The notes beneath the pieces were generated by a model, which was given only the letters and a program-made list of their open reading frames with translations, searched no databases and was not told the DNA's origin. 64,000 bases of DNA from Paramecium tetraurelia. Taxonomy: Eukaryota. This document shows positions 6,065-11,621 of this stretch, in pieces (the stretch's first letter is position 1; each line of letters opens with the position of its first letter). Made by a program: the position numbers and the translations under genes. The stretch is taken from the NCBI GenBank assembly GCA_000165425.1, contig CT868108.1, positions 310,001-374,000 on the forward strand, given 5' to 3'.

Positions 6065-6622
6065 GAATGTATTTTCAAATCTATGACTATCCTAACAGCT
6101 TATTTTATTAAACTTTTTATATCTATTCAATTTATGTCCTCAGATTATAATGTTATCTTATTCTTACAATTAATTATAAATAACAGTATTAATAATAAAT
6201 GTATTATTATTTCTTAATTTTGAAAATATATTAATGCTTTTAAAAAATATAATTAAAATCTTAATATTAATTAATATATAATTTAAAAATAAAAAAAACA
6301 AGATATTAGTAATAAATGTTAATTGCAAAAATTCCTTTTAACCTTATTTACTAGATAATATCTTGAGTCGCAATCTAATCTAAAAAACTGCAAATGAAAA
6401 TTAATATGAGTTAAAATCGAGTAAGGAATAATAACCTTTATTGATATAAATCGTTAATATTAACTATAAAATTTTACATCAGTTATAAAGTTTATCAAAA
6501 AGCAAAAGCGGAGTTTATTAAGATTAATCCCCTCGAAAATTATTGAATTTTAAATTATAAATCTCATGAGATAAAGATTCAACTTAAAATTTATATAAAT
6601 AAGCACACAATATATATAAATA

Positions 6623-9600
6623 TCAATCTTATTTTACCTTATTTTCTAGTGGTTTAATAGAGTCATTCTTTTTTATATTTGATTTATTTTGTTCAGATAG
6701 ATATTCTTCTTTTTTCAAGACTAATTCAACCCACTCTGGTTCATCTGGAATTACTCCTTCTATTACGAACTTGATTCCTATAACTATATGTTCAGCAACA
6801 ATTAATAATAAAAAGTTTCTCAGTCCAAGCTATTATAAGTAAAATAATACATTGGTTTAATCTTGATCAGAATTTTCATTGGCTCCAACTAATTTATTTA
6901 ACTCTTATTAATTTGCCTGATATATGGTTAAACAGTTTGAAACAATACCAATATAGCCAATTAATTATAAGATATCATTCCAAACTCCTATATTCTTTTT
7001 TGGTTCTGCTAAGGGTCTCTTGACGAATTTTCTAAAACCATATAATAATCCTTCTATATTGAGTAGATTAAAAAACAAGGCTATAATTGGTATAATTTGA
7101 GACCCTGCACTAAACATAGTAACCATACAAAATTATGTCATCTAACTATTGATATAATATTTACAAAATAAGTGAATTATTCGACATGATCAGGTGGGTC
7201 TATCATTCTTTTATTTAATTCAATTTACTGAAGAAAATATTAAGTAGATATTCCCTTATCAAATGATTTATTCATCCCACTAGTTTCAGTGTCTCCAATT
7301 TTTTATTGAGTATTGATTTATTTATTATTGTTTAATTGTTTTTATTTGTTGAAGTCCCAATTGAATTTTAATTTAATGAAACTAAAGGATATCCATGGAT
7401 ATATGGTATACCGAATAAGATGAATAAGAGACCAAGTGATGGTAAATGAGATACTGAAGAGTTTCAACTCAACTTCATCAGGTTTTATTATACTTCGATA
7501 AAAAAGTCGACCAAAAGAGTTAAGAAAGGTGAAAGCAAACACCTTTAAGATATAAACATTCTCTCTTTCATCCTGGAATTGATGATTCTCATAAATTAGG
7601 GTATGTTTAGAGAAGAAATTGAAAATTTCATTAGTAATTAAAACAGTTAAGGCCAAAAGACAAGCCCATAGAGTTTAATAAAAATCATCATCCTCATAGA
7701 CTTGCTTAAGATAATAATACCCGGTCTATTAGCCAGCAATAAAAACTAAGGCTAAAAGTACCAAGGGAGTATTAGATTTAAAGTATTTCCATTGTACATT
7801 CCTTGTGTCCATGATTTCTATTGTATGTGTTACATCCTCAATAATGAAGGACCCTTTATATTAGGGGATGGTTCTTCTTTGTTCCTTTGCCACATGCATA
7901 TCGAAATTATACATGGTTTCACTTTATTTTCTCTTCCAGAATTCAAAAAAGATGGTTGCCCAAACTGCCATACATAAAGTATAAATTGGAGCAATGGCTT
8001 AGATAGCTTCTTCATCAAAATATGAAATGATCCCTAAGATTAGTCCTGGAATAGCTGGTAAAAATAGCCAGGTTGAGAAAAAACATAAAAAAACAAAAAA
8101 CATTCCAACTTCTGGTCCAAAATAGGTTGATAAGGCACTGAAGGTACGACTGGTTGATTTTCTTAATTGAAATGGTTCGAATAAGATATTAATCCTTTCA
8201 TTTTTCCAGAATTTAATGATTAACTCTTTTTCTTCTTCGTCATGCAAGGGGAATTATTCTAAAAGTAATCCATCGCTTATAAATTATTCAATGTCAAATT
8301 CATCATATAATAAAGTCAAAAGGATCTATTAATTATGAATATGATGAAAGTTTTCAAATTATTCTTAGATGTTTAAATTAAATGGAGACAAATACCCTTC
8401 CCTTGAATTATAAATCATCATCTTATTCTAATCAGCAACCACATTCTTAAGTCTTTCATCAACTTTTAAACAATAATAAGTATATTGTTTATCAATAGAT
8501 TCGTAAGAGATGTATTTGAACTATCCTTTTTCAATATTCTTTTTGATTTAAATATTATTAAATTGTTATTCCAATAACTAATTTTTGCTCTTTTGCCAAC
8601 CAACCAATATGTGATTGTAACCTGATCTTAGATAGTTTTTTTCGTCATTATGTAAGAGTTCTCTCTTAAGTTATTTTATTTCATTCAATCGAGATTAATC
8701 AAAGGCTCTGTGATTTCGAAAGTTATAATAATTTGGATCAGCTCCTTTCTTGATTAATATCTTAGCAATTTCAATGTGACCTCTCTCAACTGCAATGTGT
8801 AAGGCAGTCTGAGGTTTATCTTTAGTCATAAGATTGATTACATTTTCTTTTCGAAATATTCTGGATTCATCAGATTCCAAGTAAAATTAAACTAATTCTA
8901 ATCTATTGTGATAGACTGCAGCGTGAAGAGCATTCCTTCCCCTATAAGATGGTTCGAATGGTGAATACTTACATTTCAATAGAGGTCTTACGAGATCTAA
9001 TCTACCTTAGGTGCTTGCCCAAAACAAATATCTAAGACCCACCTAAGTTAATTATTAAGTGGACTTAAGATTTAGGTTATGTTTGTGTAAATTTTTAAAT
9101 GCTTCATATTCTTCATCAAAAACATCCAATTTTTTCCTGTGCTCTTCATTATCTAGATATTGAGCCAAGAACTTCATTATCATATATTCCAGGACTCTTT
9201 CATCCTCTTCCCTGTCATCCAACTCTTTACCTGTCATTAGCGATAAATCAATCGGGAACTAATCCCTGTCATTAGTAAACAACACTAGAAACTCATTAAT
9301 ACGATTACTTAAACTCGGCTCTATGTACATTAATAATTTAGCGGTCTTTAAGTCTCCAAAGAAGCAAGCCCAATGCAATGGATTATTTATTCCTAATTTC
9401 TTATATTGTTCAACCGATGCTCCTCTCTCAATCAATAAAGAACAGATAGCGAATTTCTAGCCCTCTTTCAGAGTGTTGATATCTGTGTTGTACCCACGAA
9501 CACAGGTAAGCATCAAAGCTGTATTGCCTCAATAATAGTTTATGAAAATTTACCCTTATTATCTTAGGAATTAATGTTTATACATTATAAATCAAGAAAA

Positions 9601-9910
9601 TATTCTACAACTTTGTAATGTCCACGATAGGCAGCCTATTATAGTAGTTCATGTACATAATGCAATGCATTTCTGCCATAATAGTCTGTTTTCTTACAAG
9701 CTTATTATAAATGTCGAGATGTCAATGATGTTAACTGATTGTTAATGAACTCTAACTTTCCATCTTATGCGGCCTAGCAATCCTCTATTTGGATACCTCC
9801 AATAAATTAATTTCATCATGGCTGAACAAATTCATGTAAAAATCAATTCTGATATATTAAAATAAATAACCTGTTTTTTATAAATTAATTGCATTTAATG
9901 CCAACTCCAT
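6623..9910 (-). CDS. ankyrin-repeat + anoctamin (TMEM16)-family membrane protein
   Basis: N-terminal ankyrin motifs (GRNALH, NTALMLTC, NNPLHWACFFG, GRNALHAAV, QTALHIAVERGHIEIAKILIKKGADPN). Anoctamin signatures: YFGPEVGMFFVFL, ENHQFQDERENVYILKVFAFTFLNSF, KRP...IGVW, IIVAEHIV...VIPDEPEWV. Confidence 0.9.
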
Positions 9911-10223
9911 TTTAGTAATTATCTCTATTTTTTCAAATCTTTGATTTAATTAAAAACATTTTAAAATTTCAAATCTCTAAGTTAAAATTCATTTTATTGA
10001 TTAATTTGTCTTTAAAGATTTTCCTTCAAAATGAATATAATTTAGTCTGAATAATTGAATTAATTTATATACAATATTCGATTAATTAATAAGTCTTAGT
10101 AGAGTGAGTAATTAAATTTTCATATATTTATTATTTACAAAAATTGAGTATTTTTTAAAGAACCATGATTTTTACATTAATTTAAAAAAGAATGATAACA
10201 ATATAATGCATCATAATATAATA

Positions 10224-11621
10224 TCAATTGCTGTTTTGACTGTCATTTTCACTTTGACTGCCTGCATTTTATCTGTTCATTCTTTGATTGATCTTATAAA
10301 TCTGTTCTGCATCCATTAATTAATAGTCGTTACTAGACTATTCTTCCTCCTCTTCTAGTTATTAATTAAATATAATTGTATCTTGACCTGGAAATCTTTC
10401 CTTGTTGAGTCTAATTCTTCCCTTTTTAGTCTTTATTCTTTATTTTCCCTCCCCTTCAATTTGAATCTTCTTTTTCTTTCTCTTGAATTTTTCAATCTGT
10501 TTCTACACTTTAGTTTCAGGCTTTTATTTTCTAACATACTTTCTCTTAGGCTAAGCAGGATCATAATTGAGTAATTTCTTACCACCTTCCAATTCCATAA
10601 TATCCACAGTCAAGTCCTGAGGGAATGGCATTCTTCTAAGTCTTTGCTTCATTGTACCAATTATAAAAGGCCTTGTTCTAGTCTGTATTACAATATTTAT
10701 AAATGAAGCTCTCTTTGATTTCTTCAATATCCTTTTTTGTGAATTGAGTTTATGGTCCCATTCTACTCAATCTGACTGATGTTGTTAAAATCTCATCTTC
10801 TTCTGTATGTTCTGGACTGGATTCCTCTTCAAGAGCATCATTCCAAAACCGTATTTTAGTTGGTTTGATATATTTCCCCTTTCTGAAATCATCGGCATCA
10901 ATTAGATCGGATGTATCATCAATCGCCTTCAATTCATTACATGAAATGAGCACAATGGTATCCATGATGAAAATATTGAATAAAACTTTCTAAAATTTGG
11001 CAGGGGAGATCATTTTCTTGACTTCAGCCCACATTAATTCAGTCTACAGATGCGAGTTATCAACCAAATAGGTCATTACTTTGACTAATGACTTACAACT
11101 AACTATGATTTCTCTTGCAGATTGATCTTGAACACTCAATGGATCTCTGCTATTAAATTCTATCACTCTCTTTTTTGTGGTCTCTCTCATAGTATCTATT
11201 TTCTATTAATTATATGATGCTATCTTTCCTATCTCTCTATTTAAATCTGAAATTATCTAAGTAAAGTGGATAGAAAATCTTTAGGATAAATAAGTCTTAT
11301 CTCTCTGTTGACCAATCAATTCGTATTAATCTCTGATTGCATCCCAATGACATTTGAATCTCACACAATGATGCCAATGTTGAACCATTTCCTCCGGTGT
11401 AAAGGGTTCCCTGTTTATTTTAGGATCAATTGCTCTCCATCTGGCTTAAACCATTGGTTTCTGAGGTACATTTATACCATACAAATTCTTCATTTATCTT
11501 GTGATTTCTGCCCACTTTGCTTCTCCTACTTTGGAGACCAACATTTCCAAGACTTGATCAAACTAAAAAAATCAGTAGCAATTCTTACTCTTTCAGTGTA
11601 GACTTAAACATGTTTAGGCAT
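10224..11621 (-). CDS. divergent Myb/SANT-domain protein
   Basis: After a ~26-nt first intron: FDQVLEMLVSKVGEAKWAEITRQM...VQARWRAIDPKINREPFTPEEMVQHW...HWDAI (R2R3-like spacing). The C-terminus is low complexity and charged. TGA 10224-10226. Confidence 0.7.

What the first reader, a model, noticed from the sequence alone, without database searches (positions are those of the whole stretch)
6623..9910. Ankyrin-anoctamin fusion that appears to have lost the TMEM16 Ca2+-binding site
Seen in sequence: at least five ankyrin-like repeats precede a full anoctamin membrane domain in one spliced gene. In my manual alignment to the TMEM16 consensus, the acidic Ca2+ ligands are replaced. TM7 'EYMEMIIQF' reads 'QFTYFMTQF', TM8 'NNIIEIRLD' reads 'FNLLNIEGL', and the TM6 Glu position reads Tyr (LIRYTIYPW). 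Established: animal and fungal TMEM16 proteins lack ankyrin repeats and are gated by those acidic residues, the related OSCA/TMEM63/TMC folds are mechanosensitive, and ankyrin arrays act as tethers in NOMPC. Inference: a Ca2+-independent channel or scramblase gated through its ankyrin domain, which would be a candidate ciliate mechanotransducer.
Basis: partly seen in the sequence, partly recalled or inferred. Interest (0 to 1): 0.75.

Follow-up and report, generated by a model that had tools for sequence, protein, structure and literature searches.

The report
Ankyrin–TMEM16 fusion lacking calcium site
This Paramecium gene encodes a membrane protein of the TMEM16 (anoctamin) lipid-scramblase/channel family that carries ankyrin repeats at its front end and has replaced all five residues of the family's main calcium switch, and it belongs to a wider, so far undescribed group of protist proteins built the same way.

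Summary
On the minus strand (ATG 9835, stop ending 6623; 7 exons, 6 introns of 21-26 nt) lies an expressed Paramecium tetraurelia gene. It encodes about seven ankyrin repeats, a TMEM16-type cytosolic domain and a ten-helix anoctamin domain. Ankyrin block 2 and TM1-6 share one 2,120-nt exon, so the fusion is real. Three alignments agree that the five acidic TM6-8 Ca2+ ligands read Y, Q, Y, N, L, and these replacements are conserved in paralogs only 52-55% identical. The pattern is not private: all 20 full-length ankyrin-bearing TMEM16 relatives examined keep 0-2 of the five ligands, while 63 of 89 relatives without a Pfam Ank call keep all five. On the tree, every Ank-bearing protein lies apart from the canonical group. 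Some relatives add cNMP-binding domains or an EF-hand pair in the TM6-7 loop. The separate TM2/TM10 "third" Ca2+ site is intact, so Ca2+ independence is not shown, and nothing supports mechanotransduction. The best reading is an Ist2-like TMEM16 scramblase whose control has moved from the intramembrane Ca2+ site to cytosolic modules. It is a new variant of a known kind, of moderate interest.

The parts
6623..9835 (-). Whole coding region of the Ank-TMEM16 gene (ATG 9835-9833, TGA stop 6625-6623). It gives 1024 aa fully spliced, or 1031 aa as annotated in P0001.
   Evidence: translation identical to P0001 with the 21-nt intron retained. (stranded RNA reads 6617-9892).
9797..9835 (-). Exon 1
   Evidence: The start MNLFSHDEINLLE is shared by orthologue models P0002, P0003 and P0005.
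9774..9796 (-). Intron 1 (23 nt, GT..AG). It must be removed to join the ATG frame to the first ankyrin repeat.
   Evidence: The junction ...INLLE|AAQDG... is conserved in paralogs. One transcript contig of run X3 ends inside this intron, so its splicing is not shown directly.
9657..9773 (-). Exon 2
9636..9656 (-). Intron 2 (21 nt, in frame, no TGA). P0001's annotation and one X3 contig retain it; the orthologue models remove it.
   Evidence: The 7 residues it encodes fall in AF2's low-confidence stretch 54-62. Four X21 reads from a close paralog are spliced exactly here.
9554..9635 (-). Exon 3
9528..9553 (-). Intron 3 (26 nt)
   Evidence: It is left out in an X3 contig (listed at place 9527).
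9309..9527 (-). Exon 4
9285..9308 (-). Intron 4 (24 nt)
   Evidence: It is left out in an X3 contig.
7165..9284 (-). Exon 5 (2120 nt). It holds the end of Ank block 1, the linker, Ank block 2, the cytosolic domain, TM1-TM6 and the start of TM7, so ankyrin and anoctamin parts sit in one exon.
7142..7164 (-). Intron 5 (23 nt), inside TM7 (...QFTYF|MTQF...)
   Evidence: It is left out in an X5 contig.
6851..7141 (-). Exon 6 (TM7-TM9)
6830..6850 (-). Intron 6 (21 nt)
   Evidence: It is left out in an X5 contig.
6623..6829 (-). Exon 7 (TM10, C-terminal helix, stop)
9268..9835 (-). Ankyrin block 1 (residues 1-165 in P0001 numbering; four helix pairs plus a partial one; introns included in this span)
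   Evidence: Pfam Ank hits, AF2 helices, coordinates
9061..9267 (-). Helical, acidic linker between the ankyrin blocks (residues 166-234). It is the least conserved cytosolic part, 31-42% identical to paralogs.
8647..9060 (-). Ankyrin block 2 (residues 235-372; three helix pairs plus a capping helix)
   Evidence: Pfam Ank_2/Ank at E 1e-22 to 1e-24
8158..8646 (-). Alpha-beta cytosolic domain (residues 373-535) of the kind that precedes TM1 in TMEM16 proteins
   Evidence: AF2 strands and helices at 384-532. Foldseek covers about 670-680 alignment columns of TMEM16K chains of 607-629 residues, TM-score 0.81.
6719..8157 (-). Ten-helix TMEM16/anoctamin membrane domain (residues 536-1000; introns 5 and 6 included in this span)
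   Evidence: PF04547, AF2, Foldseek
7408..7410 (-). Y785 on TM6, at the column of the TM6 Glu ligand (E in 71 of 105 relatives)
7177..7179 (-). Q862 on TM7, at the first TM7 acidic ligand column (D 68, E 9 of 105)
7168..7170 (-). Y865 on TM7, at the second TM7 acidic ligand column (E 69 of 105)
7058..7060 (-). N894 on TM8, at the TM8 Glu ligand column (E 75 of 105)
7046..7048 (-). L898 on TM8, at the TM8 Asp ligand column (D 75 of 105)
7933..7944 (-). TM2 E607 and K610 (motif FFEFWKR). They align to TMEM16F E395/K398 and TMEM16K E259/K262 of the third Ca2+ site, which is retained here.
   Evidence: PMC8640346 and PMC7786149 (passages read)
6743..6745 (-). TM10 D992 (motif IPDEP). It aligns to TMEM16K D615 of the third Ca2+ site, which is retained here.
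9908..9910 (-). It is probably outside the transcript.
   Evidence: There is no RNA depth in bin 9893-10000 (low depth). The orthologue models start at the equivalent of 9835.

Best explanation
The locus is an expressed Paramecium tetraurelia gene for a TMEM16-family membrane protein that is presumably dimeric like its relatives. The protein has two N-terminal ankyrin blocks (about seven repeats), then the usual TMEM16 cytosolic domain and a ten-helix membrane domain.

Shown:
- The fold and family.
- The fusion in one exon and one transcript.
- Replacement of all five acidic TM6-8 Ca2+ ligands by Y/Q/Y/N/L, conserved among paralogs.
- Retention of the TM2/TM10 Ca2+ site.
- Membership of a distinct branch of TMEM16 proteins that combine N-terminal ankyrin repeats with a missing TM6-8 site. 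Some of these add cNMP-binding or EF-hand modules.

Inferred:
- Like its nearest solved relatives (TMEM16K, TMEM16F and the fungal scramblases), it moves lipids between leaflets, possibly with a non-selective ion leak.
- Ca2+ binding between TM6 and TM7/8 cannot switch it on.
- Either the neutral or aromatic replacements hold the TM6-8 region in a fixed state, as the Lys substitution does in constitutively active yeast Ist2, or control has passed to cytosolic parts.
- The ankyrin platform would place the protein at a particular membrane or partner and may regulate it. Ca2+ could still modulate it allosterically through TM2/TM10.
For: Family and fold:
- PF04547 hits.
- AF2 mean pLDDT 87.4, pTM 0.84.
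- The best Foldseek matches are TMEM16K chains (TM-score 0.78-0.81 on the target), then TMEM16F, afTMEM16 and nhTMEM16, with TMEM16A lower.
- phmmer ranks TMEM16K first among TMEM16 structures.

Site loss:
- Searches agree.
- The replacement residues are the same or conservative (Y/F, N/T) in six Paramecium proteins down to 52-55% identity. TM7-8 is 58-67% identical, above the whole-protein value. This looks like constraint, not decay.

Clade:
- 15 of the 150 nearest representatives carry Ank + Anoctamin.
- All 16 Ank rows in the 105-row alignment have 0-2 acidic ligands. Of the 89 other rows, 63 have all five.
- Four more full-length Ank proteins have 0-1.
- IQ-TREE on 62 rows gives a core of 18 rows (12 with a Pfam Ank call) at 95% support. 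A 100% branch separates 38 canonical rows from all Ank rows. FastTree on 103 rows agrees.

Outsourced control:
- P0191 has an EF-hand pair at 975-1048, inside its TM6-7 loop (914-1088).
- P0168 and P0237 have cNMP-binding domains after TM10.

Precedent: Ist2 lacks 3 of the 5 acidic residues and scrambles lipids constitutively and Ca2+-independently (PMC12618243 and bioRxiv 10.1101/2025.02.13.638165, passages read).

Expression.
Against: - No functional datum exists for this protein or any clade member. Scrambling, conduction and Ca2+ response are all inferred.
- Ist2's mechanism is a Lys that bridges two retained acidic residues. It has no counterpart here: the equivalent position is Tyr and no ligand is retained.
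- The AF2 model matched 'closed' TMEM16K forms best. Its coordinates could not be inspected, so nothing is known about the state of the groove.
- The intact third Ca2+ site means Ca2+ regulation is not excluded.
- Acidic residues remain next to the old site: E861, and E896 where relatives have Arg/Lys.
- Site loss also occurs sporadically elsewhere in the family (7 of 80 rows on the canonical side), so loss alone is not special.
- P0249 keeps all five ligands and sits unresolved near the Ank groups. It is a 512-aa fragment, so its N-terminus is unknown.
- The tree is unrooted and its deepest branch is weak (89).
Confidence: 0.5

Rival explanations
1. Mechanotransducer. The ankyrin domain tethers the protein to the cortex or cytoskeleton, and force on it opens a TMEM16-fold channel or scramblase that serves ciliate touch responses.
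For: This rests on analogy only. An ankyrin protein was reported as an intracellular tether for TMC channels, which share the superfamily fold (Tang 2020, as cited in PMC10895266, passages read). OSCA/TMEM63 relatives are mechanosensitive and NOMPC uses an ankyrin array (both recalled, not tested here). The main Ca2+ switch is gone, so some other stimulus is needed if the protein is gated.
Against: - There are about seven repeats in two blocks split by a helical linker, far from a long spring.
- pTM 0.84 indicates a compact, fixed arrangement.
- Relatives in the same branch carry cNMP-binding and EF-hand modules, which points to chemical control.
- There are no data on localisation or phenotype.
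- Pfam finds only Anoctamin, not TMC or OSCA families.
Confidence: 0.07
2. Inactive TMEM16 shell. Having lost its activating site, the membrane domain no longer transports anything. It serves as a dimeric membrane anchor or scaffold for the ankyrin platform, or as a regulatory partner of canonical TMEM16 paralogs.
For: All five activating ligands are gone. In other TMEM16 proteins, neutralising these residues severely reduces Ca2+-dependent activation (stated in PMC7786149, passage read). The AF2 model resembles closed forms.
Against: - The membrane domain is as conserved as the rest of the protein or more so: TM7-8 58-67% and TM9-10 65%, against 52-55% overall.
- Family-invariant positions are kept.
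- Ist2 was long thought inactive and turned out to be a constitutive scramblase (PMC12618243).
- Relatives that add ligand sensors to the same site-less domain suggest there is still something to regulate.
Confidence: 0.15
3. Still a Ca2+-controlled TMEM16. Ca2+ acts through the retained TM2/TM10 site, or through a Ca2+-binding partner held by the ankyrin domain, so the physiology remains Ca2+-dependent although the TM6-8 site is lost.
For: - E607, K610 and D992 align to the third-site residues of TMEM16F and TMEM16K (PMC8640346).
- In TMEM16A this site alone confers Ca2+ sensitivity of about 320 nM when the orthosteric sites are destroyed and a gate-loosening mutation is present (PMC7786149).
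- The third-site Glu and Asp are kept in 15 and 16 of the 23 clade rows.
- One relative inserts EF-hands beside TM6.
Against: In TMEM16A the third site only modulates a gate that is otherwise opened by the TM6-8 sites or by a gate-loosening mutation (PMC7786149). These residues may also be kept for structural reasons, since they are equally conserved in canonical members. No Ca2+-binding partner is known.
Confidence: 0.2

Closest known systems
Human TMEM16K / anoctamin-10 (ER lipid scramblase; PDB 5oc9, 6r7x)
   Same: It is the best sequence match among solved TMEM16 structures and the best fold match (TM-score 0.81). Both have the cytosolic alpha-beta domain plus ten helices, and both keep the third Ca2+ site residues (E259/K262/D615 against E607/K610/D992).
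   Different: TMEM16K keeps all five acidic TM6-8 ligands and has no ankyrin repeats. Identity is only about 19%.
Yeast Ist2 (TMEM16 homologue; constitutive ER scramblase and ER-plasma membrane tether)
   Same: Both are TMEM16 members with a degenerate TM6-8 Ca2+ site plus an added cytosolic module for placing the protein. Ist2 shows that such a protein can be an active, Ca2+-insensitive scramblase (PMC12618243; bioRxiv 10.1101/2025.02.13.638165).
   Different: - Ist2 keeps 2 of 5 acidic residues and uses a Lys as a built-in Ca2+ substitute. Here none is kept and the equivalent residue is Tyr.
- Ist2's added module is a long disordered C-terminal tail. Here it is a folded N-terminal ankyrin domain and the C-tail is about 30 residues.
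- No Ist2 chain appeared among the phmmer hits to solved structures or the top 50 fold matches.
- The Ist2 site change is reported for Saccharomycetaceae, so the two losses are presumably independent.
Second Paramecium Ank-TMEM16 paralog family (P0122 cluster; P. tetraurelia member P0272, 1214 aa)
   Same: Both have N-terminal ankyrin repeats plus an Anoctamin domain. P0122 keeps 1 of 5 acidic ligands, lies in the same core clade, and keeps the third site.
   Different: It is only about 24% identical to P0001, has a longer N-terminus, and uses a different set of replacement residues (S,E,S,N,S).
NOMPC (TRP channel with an ankyrin array) and TMC channels with an ankyrin tether
   Same: In both cases an ankyrin module is attached, in cis or in trans, to an ion-conducting membrane protein. 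TMC shares the TMEM16 superfamily fold.
   Different: NOMPC is a TRP channel with a long contiguous ankyrin array (29 repeats, recalled). Here there are about seven repeats in two blocks. The TMC-ankyrin link is in trans and was not seen in native complexes (PMC10895266). No mechanical evidence exists here.
Environmental Ank-TMEM16 proteins with extra sensor domains (P0168, P0237: cNMP-binding; P0191: EF-hand pair)
   Same: They have N-terminal ankyrin repeats, 1-2 of 5 acidic ligands, and lie on the same side of the 100% branch.
   Different: They carry additional ligand-binding modules that the Paramecium protein lacks. Their organisms are unknown.

Membership tests
TMEM16 / anoctamin (Pfam PF04547) | Significant match to the Anoctamin family profile | tested here: met
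   154.6 and 111.5 bits on the two exon pieces against a cut-off of 28. Paralogs P0005 and P0121 give 291.5 and 283.8 bits.
TMEM16 / anoctamin (Pfam PF04547) | Ten-helix membrane fold preceded by an alpha-beta cytosolic domain, as in solved TMEM16 structures | tested here: met
   AF2 mean pLDDT 87.4. Foldseek TM-score 0.78-0.81 to TMEM16K, and the 50 matches listed (ranks 1-50) are all TMEM16 chains.
TMEM16 / anoctamin (Pfam PF04547) | Five acidic Ca2+ ligands on TM6, TM7 and TM8 (the orthosteric site) | tested here: not met
   0 of 5: Y785, Q862, Y865, N894, L898. The columns were identified as the five near-invariant acidic columns of the family alignment. The TMEM16K residue numbers (E448, D497, E500, E529, D533) are recalled; counting in the alignment places acidic residues at those positions, but no call names them as ligands.
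TMEM16 / anoctamin (Pfam PF04547) | Third Ca2+ site: TM2 Glu (+Lys) and TM10 Asp | tested here: met
   E607, K610 and D992 align to TMEM16F E395/K398 and TMEM16K E259/K262/D615 (PMC8640346 passage).
TMEM16 / anoctamin (Pfam PF04547) | Homodimer | not tested
   No complex prediction was run; dimerisation is assumed from the family.
TMEM16 / anoctamin (Pfam PF04547) | Ca2+-activated lipid scrambling and/or ion conduction | not testable with these tools
   This needs reconstitution or electrophysiology.
Ist2-type constitutive scramblase-tether | Degenerate TM6-8 Ca2+ site | tested here: met
   0 of 5 acidic ligands here, against 2 of 5 in Ist2 (bioRxiv 10.1101/2025.02.13.638165 passage).
Ist2-type constitutive scramblase-tether | Lys at the second TM7 ligand position that salt-bridges the retained TM6 Glu and TM8 Asp | tested here: not met
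   The equivalent position is Y865, and the TM6 and TM8 partners are Y785 and L898. The Ist2 feature is from a PMC12618243 passage.
Ist2-type constitutive scramblase-tether | Long disordered C-terminal tail with a lipid-binding end and an Osh6-binding stretch | tested here: not met
   Only about 30 residues, predicted helical, follow TM10. The extra module here is N-terminal ankyrin repeats.
NOMPC-like ankyrin-spring mechanosensitive channel | Long contiguous ankyrin array (29 repeats in NOMPC, recalled) | tested here: not met
   4+3 helix pairs in two blocks separated by a linker of about 70 residues.
NOMPC-like ankyrin-spring mechanosensitive channel | TRP-type channel domain | tested here: not met
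   Pfam finds only Ank families and Anoctamin.
NOMPC-like ankyrin-spring mechanosensitive channel | Force-dependent gating and cytoskeletal attachment | not testable with these tools
   This is an experimental question.
Ank-TMEM16 branch (proposed here) | N-terminal ankyrin repeats, 2 or fewer of the 5 acidic TM6-8 ligands, and placement apart from canonical TMEM16 | tested here: met
   All 20 full-length Ank-bearing proteins examined have 0-2 acidic ligands. P0001 lies in the 18-row core at 95% support.

The most novel reading that the evidence does not exclude
The Paramecium gene represents a protist-wide TMEM16 subfamily in which gating has been moved from the intramembrane Ca2+ site to exchangeable cytosolic sensor modules. 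All members have an ankyrin platform; some add a cyclic-nucleotide-binding domain or an EF-hand pair inserted in the TM6-TM7 loop, next to the gating helix. These would be partner-, cNMP- or EF-hand-gated scramblases or channels, a mode of TMEM16 control not described so far. In Paramecium such a protein could link cortical or ciliary signalling to membrane lipid asymmetry or conductance.
Probability: 0.25. Interest if true: 0.75.

Novelty: new variant of a known kind. Interest (0 to 1): 0.52.

Why it matters
TMEM16 proteins are studied almost entirely as Ca2+-switched channels and scramblases. Ist2 only recently showed that a member without the switch can still be active. This finding adds a whole branch, with two paralog families in Paramecium and at least 20 environmental sequence clusters. 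In that branch the switch is missing, ankyrin repeats are always present, and other sensor domains are sometimes bolted on.

That offers natural experiments on how the TM6 gate can be driven by something other than Ca2+. It also gives a tractable organism (Paramecium: RNAi by feeding, electrophysiology, behaviour) in which to ask what such a protein does. Finally, it corrects an easy over-reading: losing the TM6-8 site does not make a TMEM16 Ca2+-blind, because the TM2/TM10 site remains.

Tried and rejected
- Whole-genome paralog inventory. No genome is held for this window, so I could not count canonical versus site-less TMEM16 genes in P. tetraurelia.
- Word-indexed search with the anoctamin part alone found only 7 Paramecium proteins.
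- ESM Atlas gave only generic anoctamin clusters and no Ank + Anoctamin cluster of 50 or more members. By the tool's own terms this is no evidence of absence.
- Naming the organisms behind the environmental relatives. All clade members outside Paramecium were unnamed. The named nearest canonical relatives were a sponge, Ancoracysta, Muranothrix and Paulinella.
- RNA index. No RNA holder was listed, so I laid raw RNA runs of the same species label instead.
- Model coordinates are not exposed to scripts. Distances at the former site, the state of the groove and the ankyrin docking surface could not be examined. A possible R784-E896 salt bridge remains an untested idea, and helix geometry does not obviously favour it.
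- Literature. I found no paper on an ankyrin-TMEM16 fusion or on Paramecium TMEM16 function. The searches were 'Paramecium'+'anoctamin', 'TMEM16'/'ankyrin repeat'/'ciliate', 'anoctamin superfamily'+'ankyrin', 'TMEM16'+'Tetrahymena'+'scramblase' and 'Paramecium'+'TMEM16'. The superfamily survey PMC5868767 has no 'ankyrin', 'Paramecium', 'ciliate' or 'Alveolata' in its main text; its supplements were not read.
- The TMEM16K ligand numbers could not be confirmed in PMC8640346 and stay marked as recalled.
- I considered and rejected the idea that the fusion is a gene-model artefact. It sits in a single exon, has continuous stranded RNA coverage, and is conserved in five species' models.


Full report
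WHAT IS THERE

The window is AT-rich DNA read with the ciliate code. The finding lies on the minus strand.

The ORF listing under table 6 gives a 796-codon open frame (7138-9528), flanked by frames at 6623-7189 and 9513-9812. Pfam finds ankyrin families and Anoctamin (PF04547) in the long frame, and the rest of the Anoctamin profile in the downstream frame.

Reading the junctions gave a model with ATG at 9835, a stop ending at 6623, seven exons and six GT..AG introns of 23, 21, 26, 24, 23 and 21 nt. Such tiny introns are typical of Paramecium (recalled).

The translation is letter-for-letter the annotated Paramecium tetraurelia protein P0001 (1031 aa), provided the in-frame 21-nt intron at 9636-9656 is left in. 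Fully spliced it is 1024 aa.

Proteins of the same architecture exist in P. pentaurelia (90% identity), P. sonneborni and P. primaurelia (76-79%). Older paralogs exist in P. octaurelia and P. pentaurelia (52-56%).

IS THE FUSION REAL?

Yes. Ankyrin block 2, the cytosolic domain and TM1-TM6 lie in one 2,120-nt exon. That is 706 codons without TGA where one is expected every 46 codons or so, a chance probability near 2e-7.

Two raw oligo-dT RNA-seq runs of the same species label gave 64 and 149 reads, all in one orientation. They cover 6617-9892 with essentially nothing in the flanks. Transcript contigs of two other runs lack introns 3, 4, 5 and 6.

One contig keeps the 21-nt intron and runs into intron 1, so those two splices are not shown directly for this gene. 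Three things argue for them:
- Intron 1 must be removed to reach the conserved N-terminus.
- Four reads from a near-identical paralog are spliced exactly at 9656.
- In the AF2 model, the seven residues encoded by the 21-nt intron fall in a low-confidence stretch (54-62) of an otherwise confident ankyrin repeat.

ANATOMY

AF2 with a 57-sequence alignment gave mean pLDDT 87.4 and pTM 0.84. In P0001 numbering:
- 1-165: four ankyrin helix pairs plus a partial one.
- 166-234: a helical acidic linker.
- 235-372: three more helix pairs and a capping helix.
- 373-535: an alpha-beta cytosolic domain.
- 536-1000: ten membrane helices.
- Then a C-terminal helix.

Foldseek against the PDB returns only TMEM16 chains in the 50 matches listed. 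Human TMEM16K is best (TM-score 0.78-0.81 on the target, about 670-680 alignment columns), followed by TMEM16F, afTMEM16, nhTMEM16 and TMEM16A.

THE CA2+ SITE

phmmer's alignment to TMEM16K puts Y785, Q862, Y865, N894 and L898 opposite E448, D497, E500, E529 and D533. That these five TMEM16K residues are the Ca2+ ligands is recalled; counting in the alignment places acidic residues at those numbers, and could not confirm the names in print.

Independently, I aligned the membrane domains with MAFFT. Of 155 sequences (the top 150 representatives minus the frameshifted P0006, plus six Paramecium proteins), 105 spanned TM1-TM8. In that alignment the same five columns are the family's near-invariant acidic columns: E 71, D 68, E 69, E 75 and D 75 of 105. 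A third alignment agrees.

The replacements are conserved (Y/F, Q, Y, N/T, L) in all six Paramecium proteins. TM7-8 is 58-67% identical where the whole proteins are 52-55% identical. The altered site is maintained, not decaying.

(1) The third Ca2+ site. The TM2 Glu and Lys and the TM10 Asp are intact (E607, K610, D992; motifs FFEFWKR and IPDEP). They align to TMEM16F E395/K398 and TMEM16K E259/K262/D615, which coordinate a third Ca2+ (PMC8640346, passage). In TMEM16A, that site alone gives Ca2+ sensitivity with an apparent KD of about 320 nM once the TM6-8 sites are destroyed and a gate-loosening mutation is present (PMC7786149, passages). 'Ca2+-independent' is therefore not a safe inference.

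(2) Ist2 as a precedent. Ist2 lacks three of the five acidic residues, and two groups have shown it to be a constitutive, Ca2+-insensitive scramblase carrying an added tethering module (PMC12618243; bioRxiv 10.1101/2025.02.13.638165; passages).

IT IS A FAMILY, NOT A ONE-OFF

An exhaustive HMMER search with the window's TM1-6 piece found 2,343 relatives at E <= 0.001.

Pfam scans of all 150 best representatives found Ank + Anoctamin in 15: 6 of 57, 7 of 67 and 2 of 26. One cluster is a second Paramecium paralog family (P. tetraurelia member of 1214 aa). The rest are unnamed environmental assemblies.

In the 105-row alignment, all 16 ankyrin-bearing rows keep 0-2 acidic ligands, and the six Paramecium rows keep none. 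Of the other 89 rows, 63 keep five, 12 keep three or four, and 14 keep two or fewer. A profile search added ten more Ank + Anoctamin clusters. The four full-length ones keep 0-1.

FastTree on 103 rows (two multi-copy gene models left out) puts the 16 Ank rows and 7 of the 14 low-ligand rows on one side of a branch (support 89; inner 18 rows at 98). The other side has 73 of 80 rows with three or more ligands.

IQ-TREE with a mixture model on 62 rows recovers the 18-row core at 95. A 100% branch splits 38 canonical rows from everything carrying ankyrin repeats. Four Ank proteins, P0157 and the fragment P0249 (which keeps all five ligands) are unresolved in between.

Two of the 'no-Ank' clade members show weak N-terminal ankyrin signal, and others are N-terminally short. 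The tree is unrooted, so I cannot say whether fusion and site loss happened once.

ACCESSORY SENSORS

Within this branch, P0168 and P0237 have a cNMP-binding domain after TM10. P0237's cluster has nine members on several contigs. P0191 has an EF-hand pair (975-1048) inside its TM6-TM7 loop (914-1088), next to the helix that the lost site would have controlled. This suggests that the site-less domain is still something worth regulating.

HOW IT MOST LIKELY WORKS

The nearest relatives by sequence and fold are scramblases. Scrambling is regarded as the family's ancestral activity (established knowledge, recalled).

I therefore read this as a TMEM16 scramblase, possibly with a non-selective leak, that cannot be switched by Ca2+ at TM6-8. 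It is either locked by its neutral and aromatic replacements, as Ist2 is by a Lys, or controlled from the cytosol. The ankyrin platform would place it at a membrane or partner, and the TM2/TM10 site could provide residual Ca2+ modulation. My confidence is about 0.5, and every functional step is inferred.

The rivals are:
- Ca2+ control through the third site or a bound partner (0.2).
- An inactive scaffold (0.15).
This rests on analogy to NOMPC and to a reported, and since questioned, ankyrin tether of TMC channels (PMC10895266). Against it stand the short, split and compactly packed ankyrin domain and the ligand-type modules in relatives.

NOVELTY

The protein is in public databases as an uncharacterised 'Anoctamin transmembrane domain-containing protein'. 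I found no paper on an ankyrin-TMEM16 fusion or on Paramecium TMEM16 function. The supplements of PMC5868767 were not read and could list such fusions.

Site loss as such therefore recurs. What is new here is its strict association with an ankyrin fusion across a branch, and the added sensor modules. I rate it a new variant of a known kind, with interest about 0.5.

LIMITS

- There are no functional data.
- The divergent rows are hard to align outside TM7-8.
- The environmental relatives have no taxonomy.
- The model's coordinates could not be inspected.
- RNA depth was low.

Noticed in passing
window 9636-9656 (minus strand): This in-frame 21-nt intron without TGA is retained in the public P0001 model and in one transcript contig, but orthologue models remove it. 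The seven residues it adds fall in AF2's low-confidence stretch 54-62 inside an ankyrin repeat. It is either partial retention of a '3n, stop-free' intron or an annotation slip.
   Followed up: partly
P0006 (P. primaurelia, 571 aa), corresponding to window 7464-8315 read in another frame: The representative of the query's own 50% cluster is a shortened copy. Its middle part matches the window gene translated in a shifted frame (compare the 7464-8315 frame with P0006). It is a frameshifted pseudogene, an assembly error or a bad gene model of an ohnolog.
   Followed up: partly
P0168 and P0237 (C-terminal 1347-1435 and 1446-1527); P0191 (975-1048): Environmental Ank-TMEM16 relatives carry a cyclic-nucleotide-binding domain after TM10, or an EF-hand pair inserted in the TM6-TM7 loop. 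These architectures were not mentioned in the papers I searched.
   Followed up: partly
P0151 (Paulinella micropora, 1118 aa): This canonical-site TMEM16 has an N-terminal C2 domain (C2 match 163-253; Anoctamin 537-971). It is another accessory-domain variant.
   Followed up: no
window 7411-7413 (R784) and 7052-7054 (E896): There is a conserved charge pattern beside the former site. Arg precedes the TM6 ligand column in all six Paramecium proteins. An acidic residue (E/D) sits on TM8 where 76 of 105 relatives have Arg or Lys. A TM6-TM8 salt bridge replacing Ca2+ is conceivable but could not be checked without coordinates.
   Followed up: no
window 9656-9690, run X21: Four of five reads differ at 9669 (A>G) and 9684 (G>A) and continue, spliced at 9656, into letters that differ at four positions from the window's exon 3. 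These are transcripts of a very close paralog or another strain.
   Followed up: no
window 10224-11571 (minus strand); 14504-15667 (minus strand): The upstream neighbours are unrelated. One is a gene with a Myb-like DNA-binding domain and a Lys-rich tail. The other is a class II aminoacyl-tRNA synthetase core. A 712-codon frame at 11769-13907 has no Pfam match.
   Followed up: partly
canonical side of the tree: P0155, P0180, P0182, P0234, P0239, P0261, P0268: Seven otherwise ordinary TMEM16 representatives without ankyrin repeats also keep two or fewer acidic ligands. Loss of the TM6-8 site recurs sporadically across the family.
   Followed up: no
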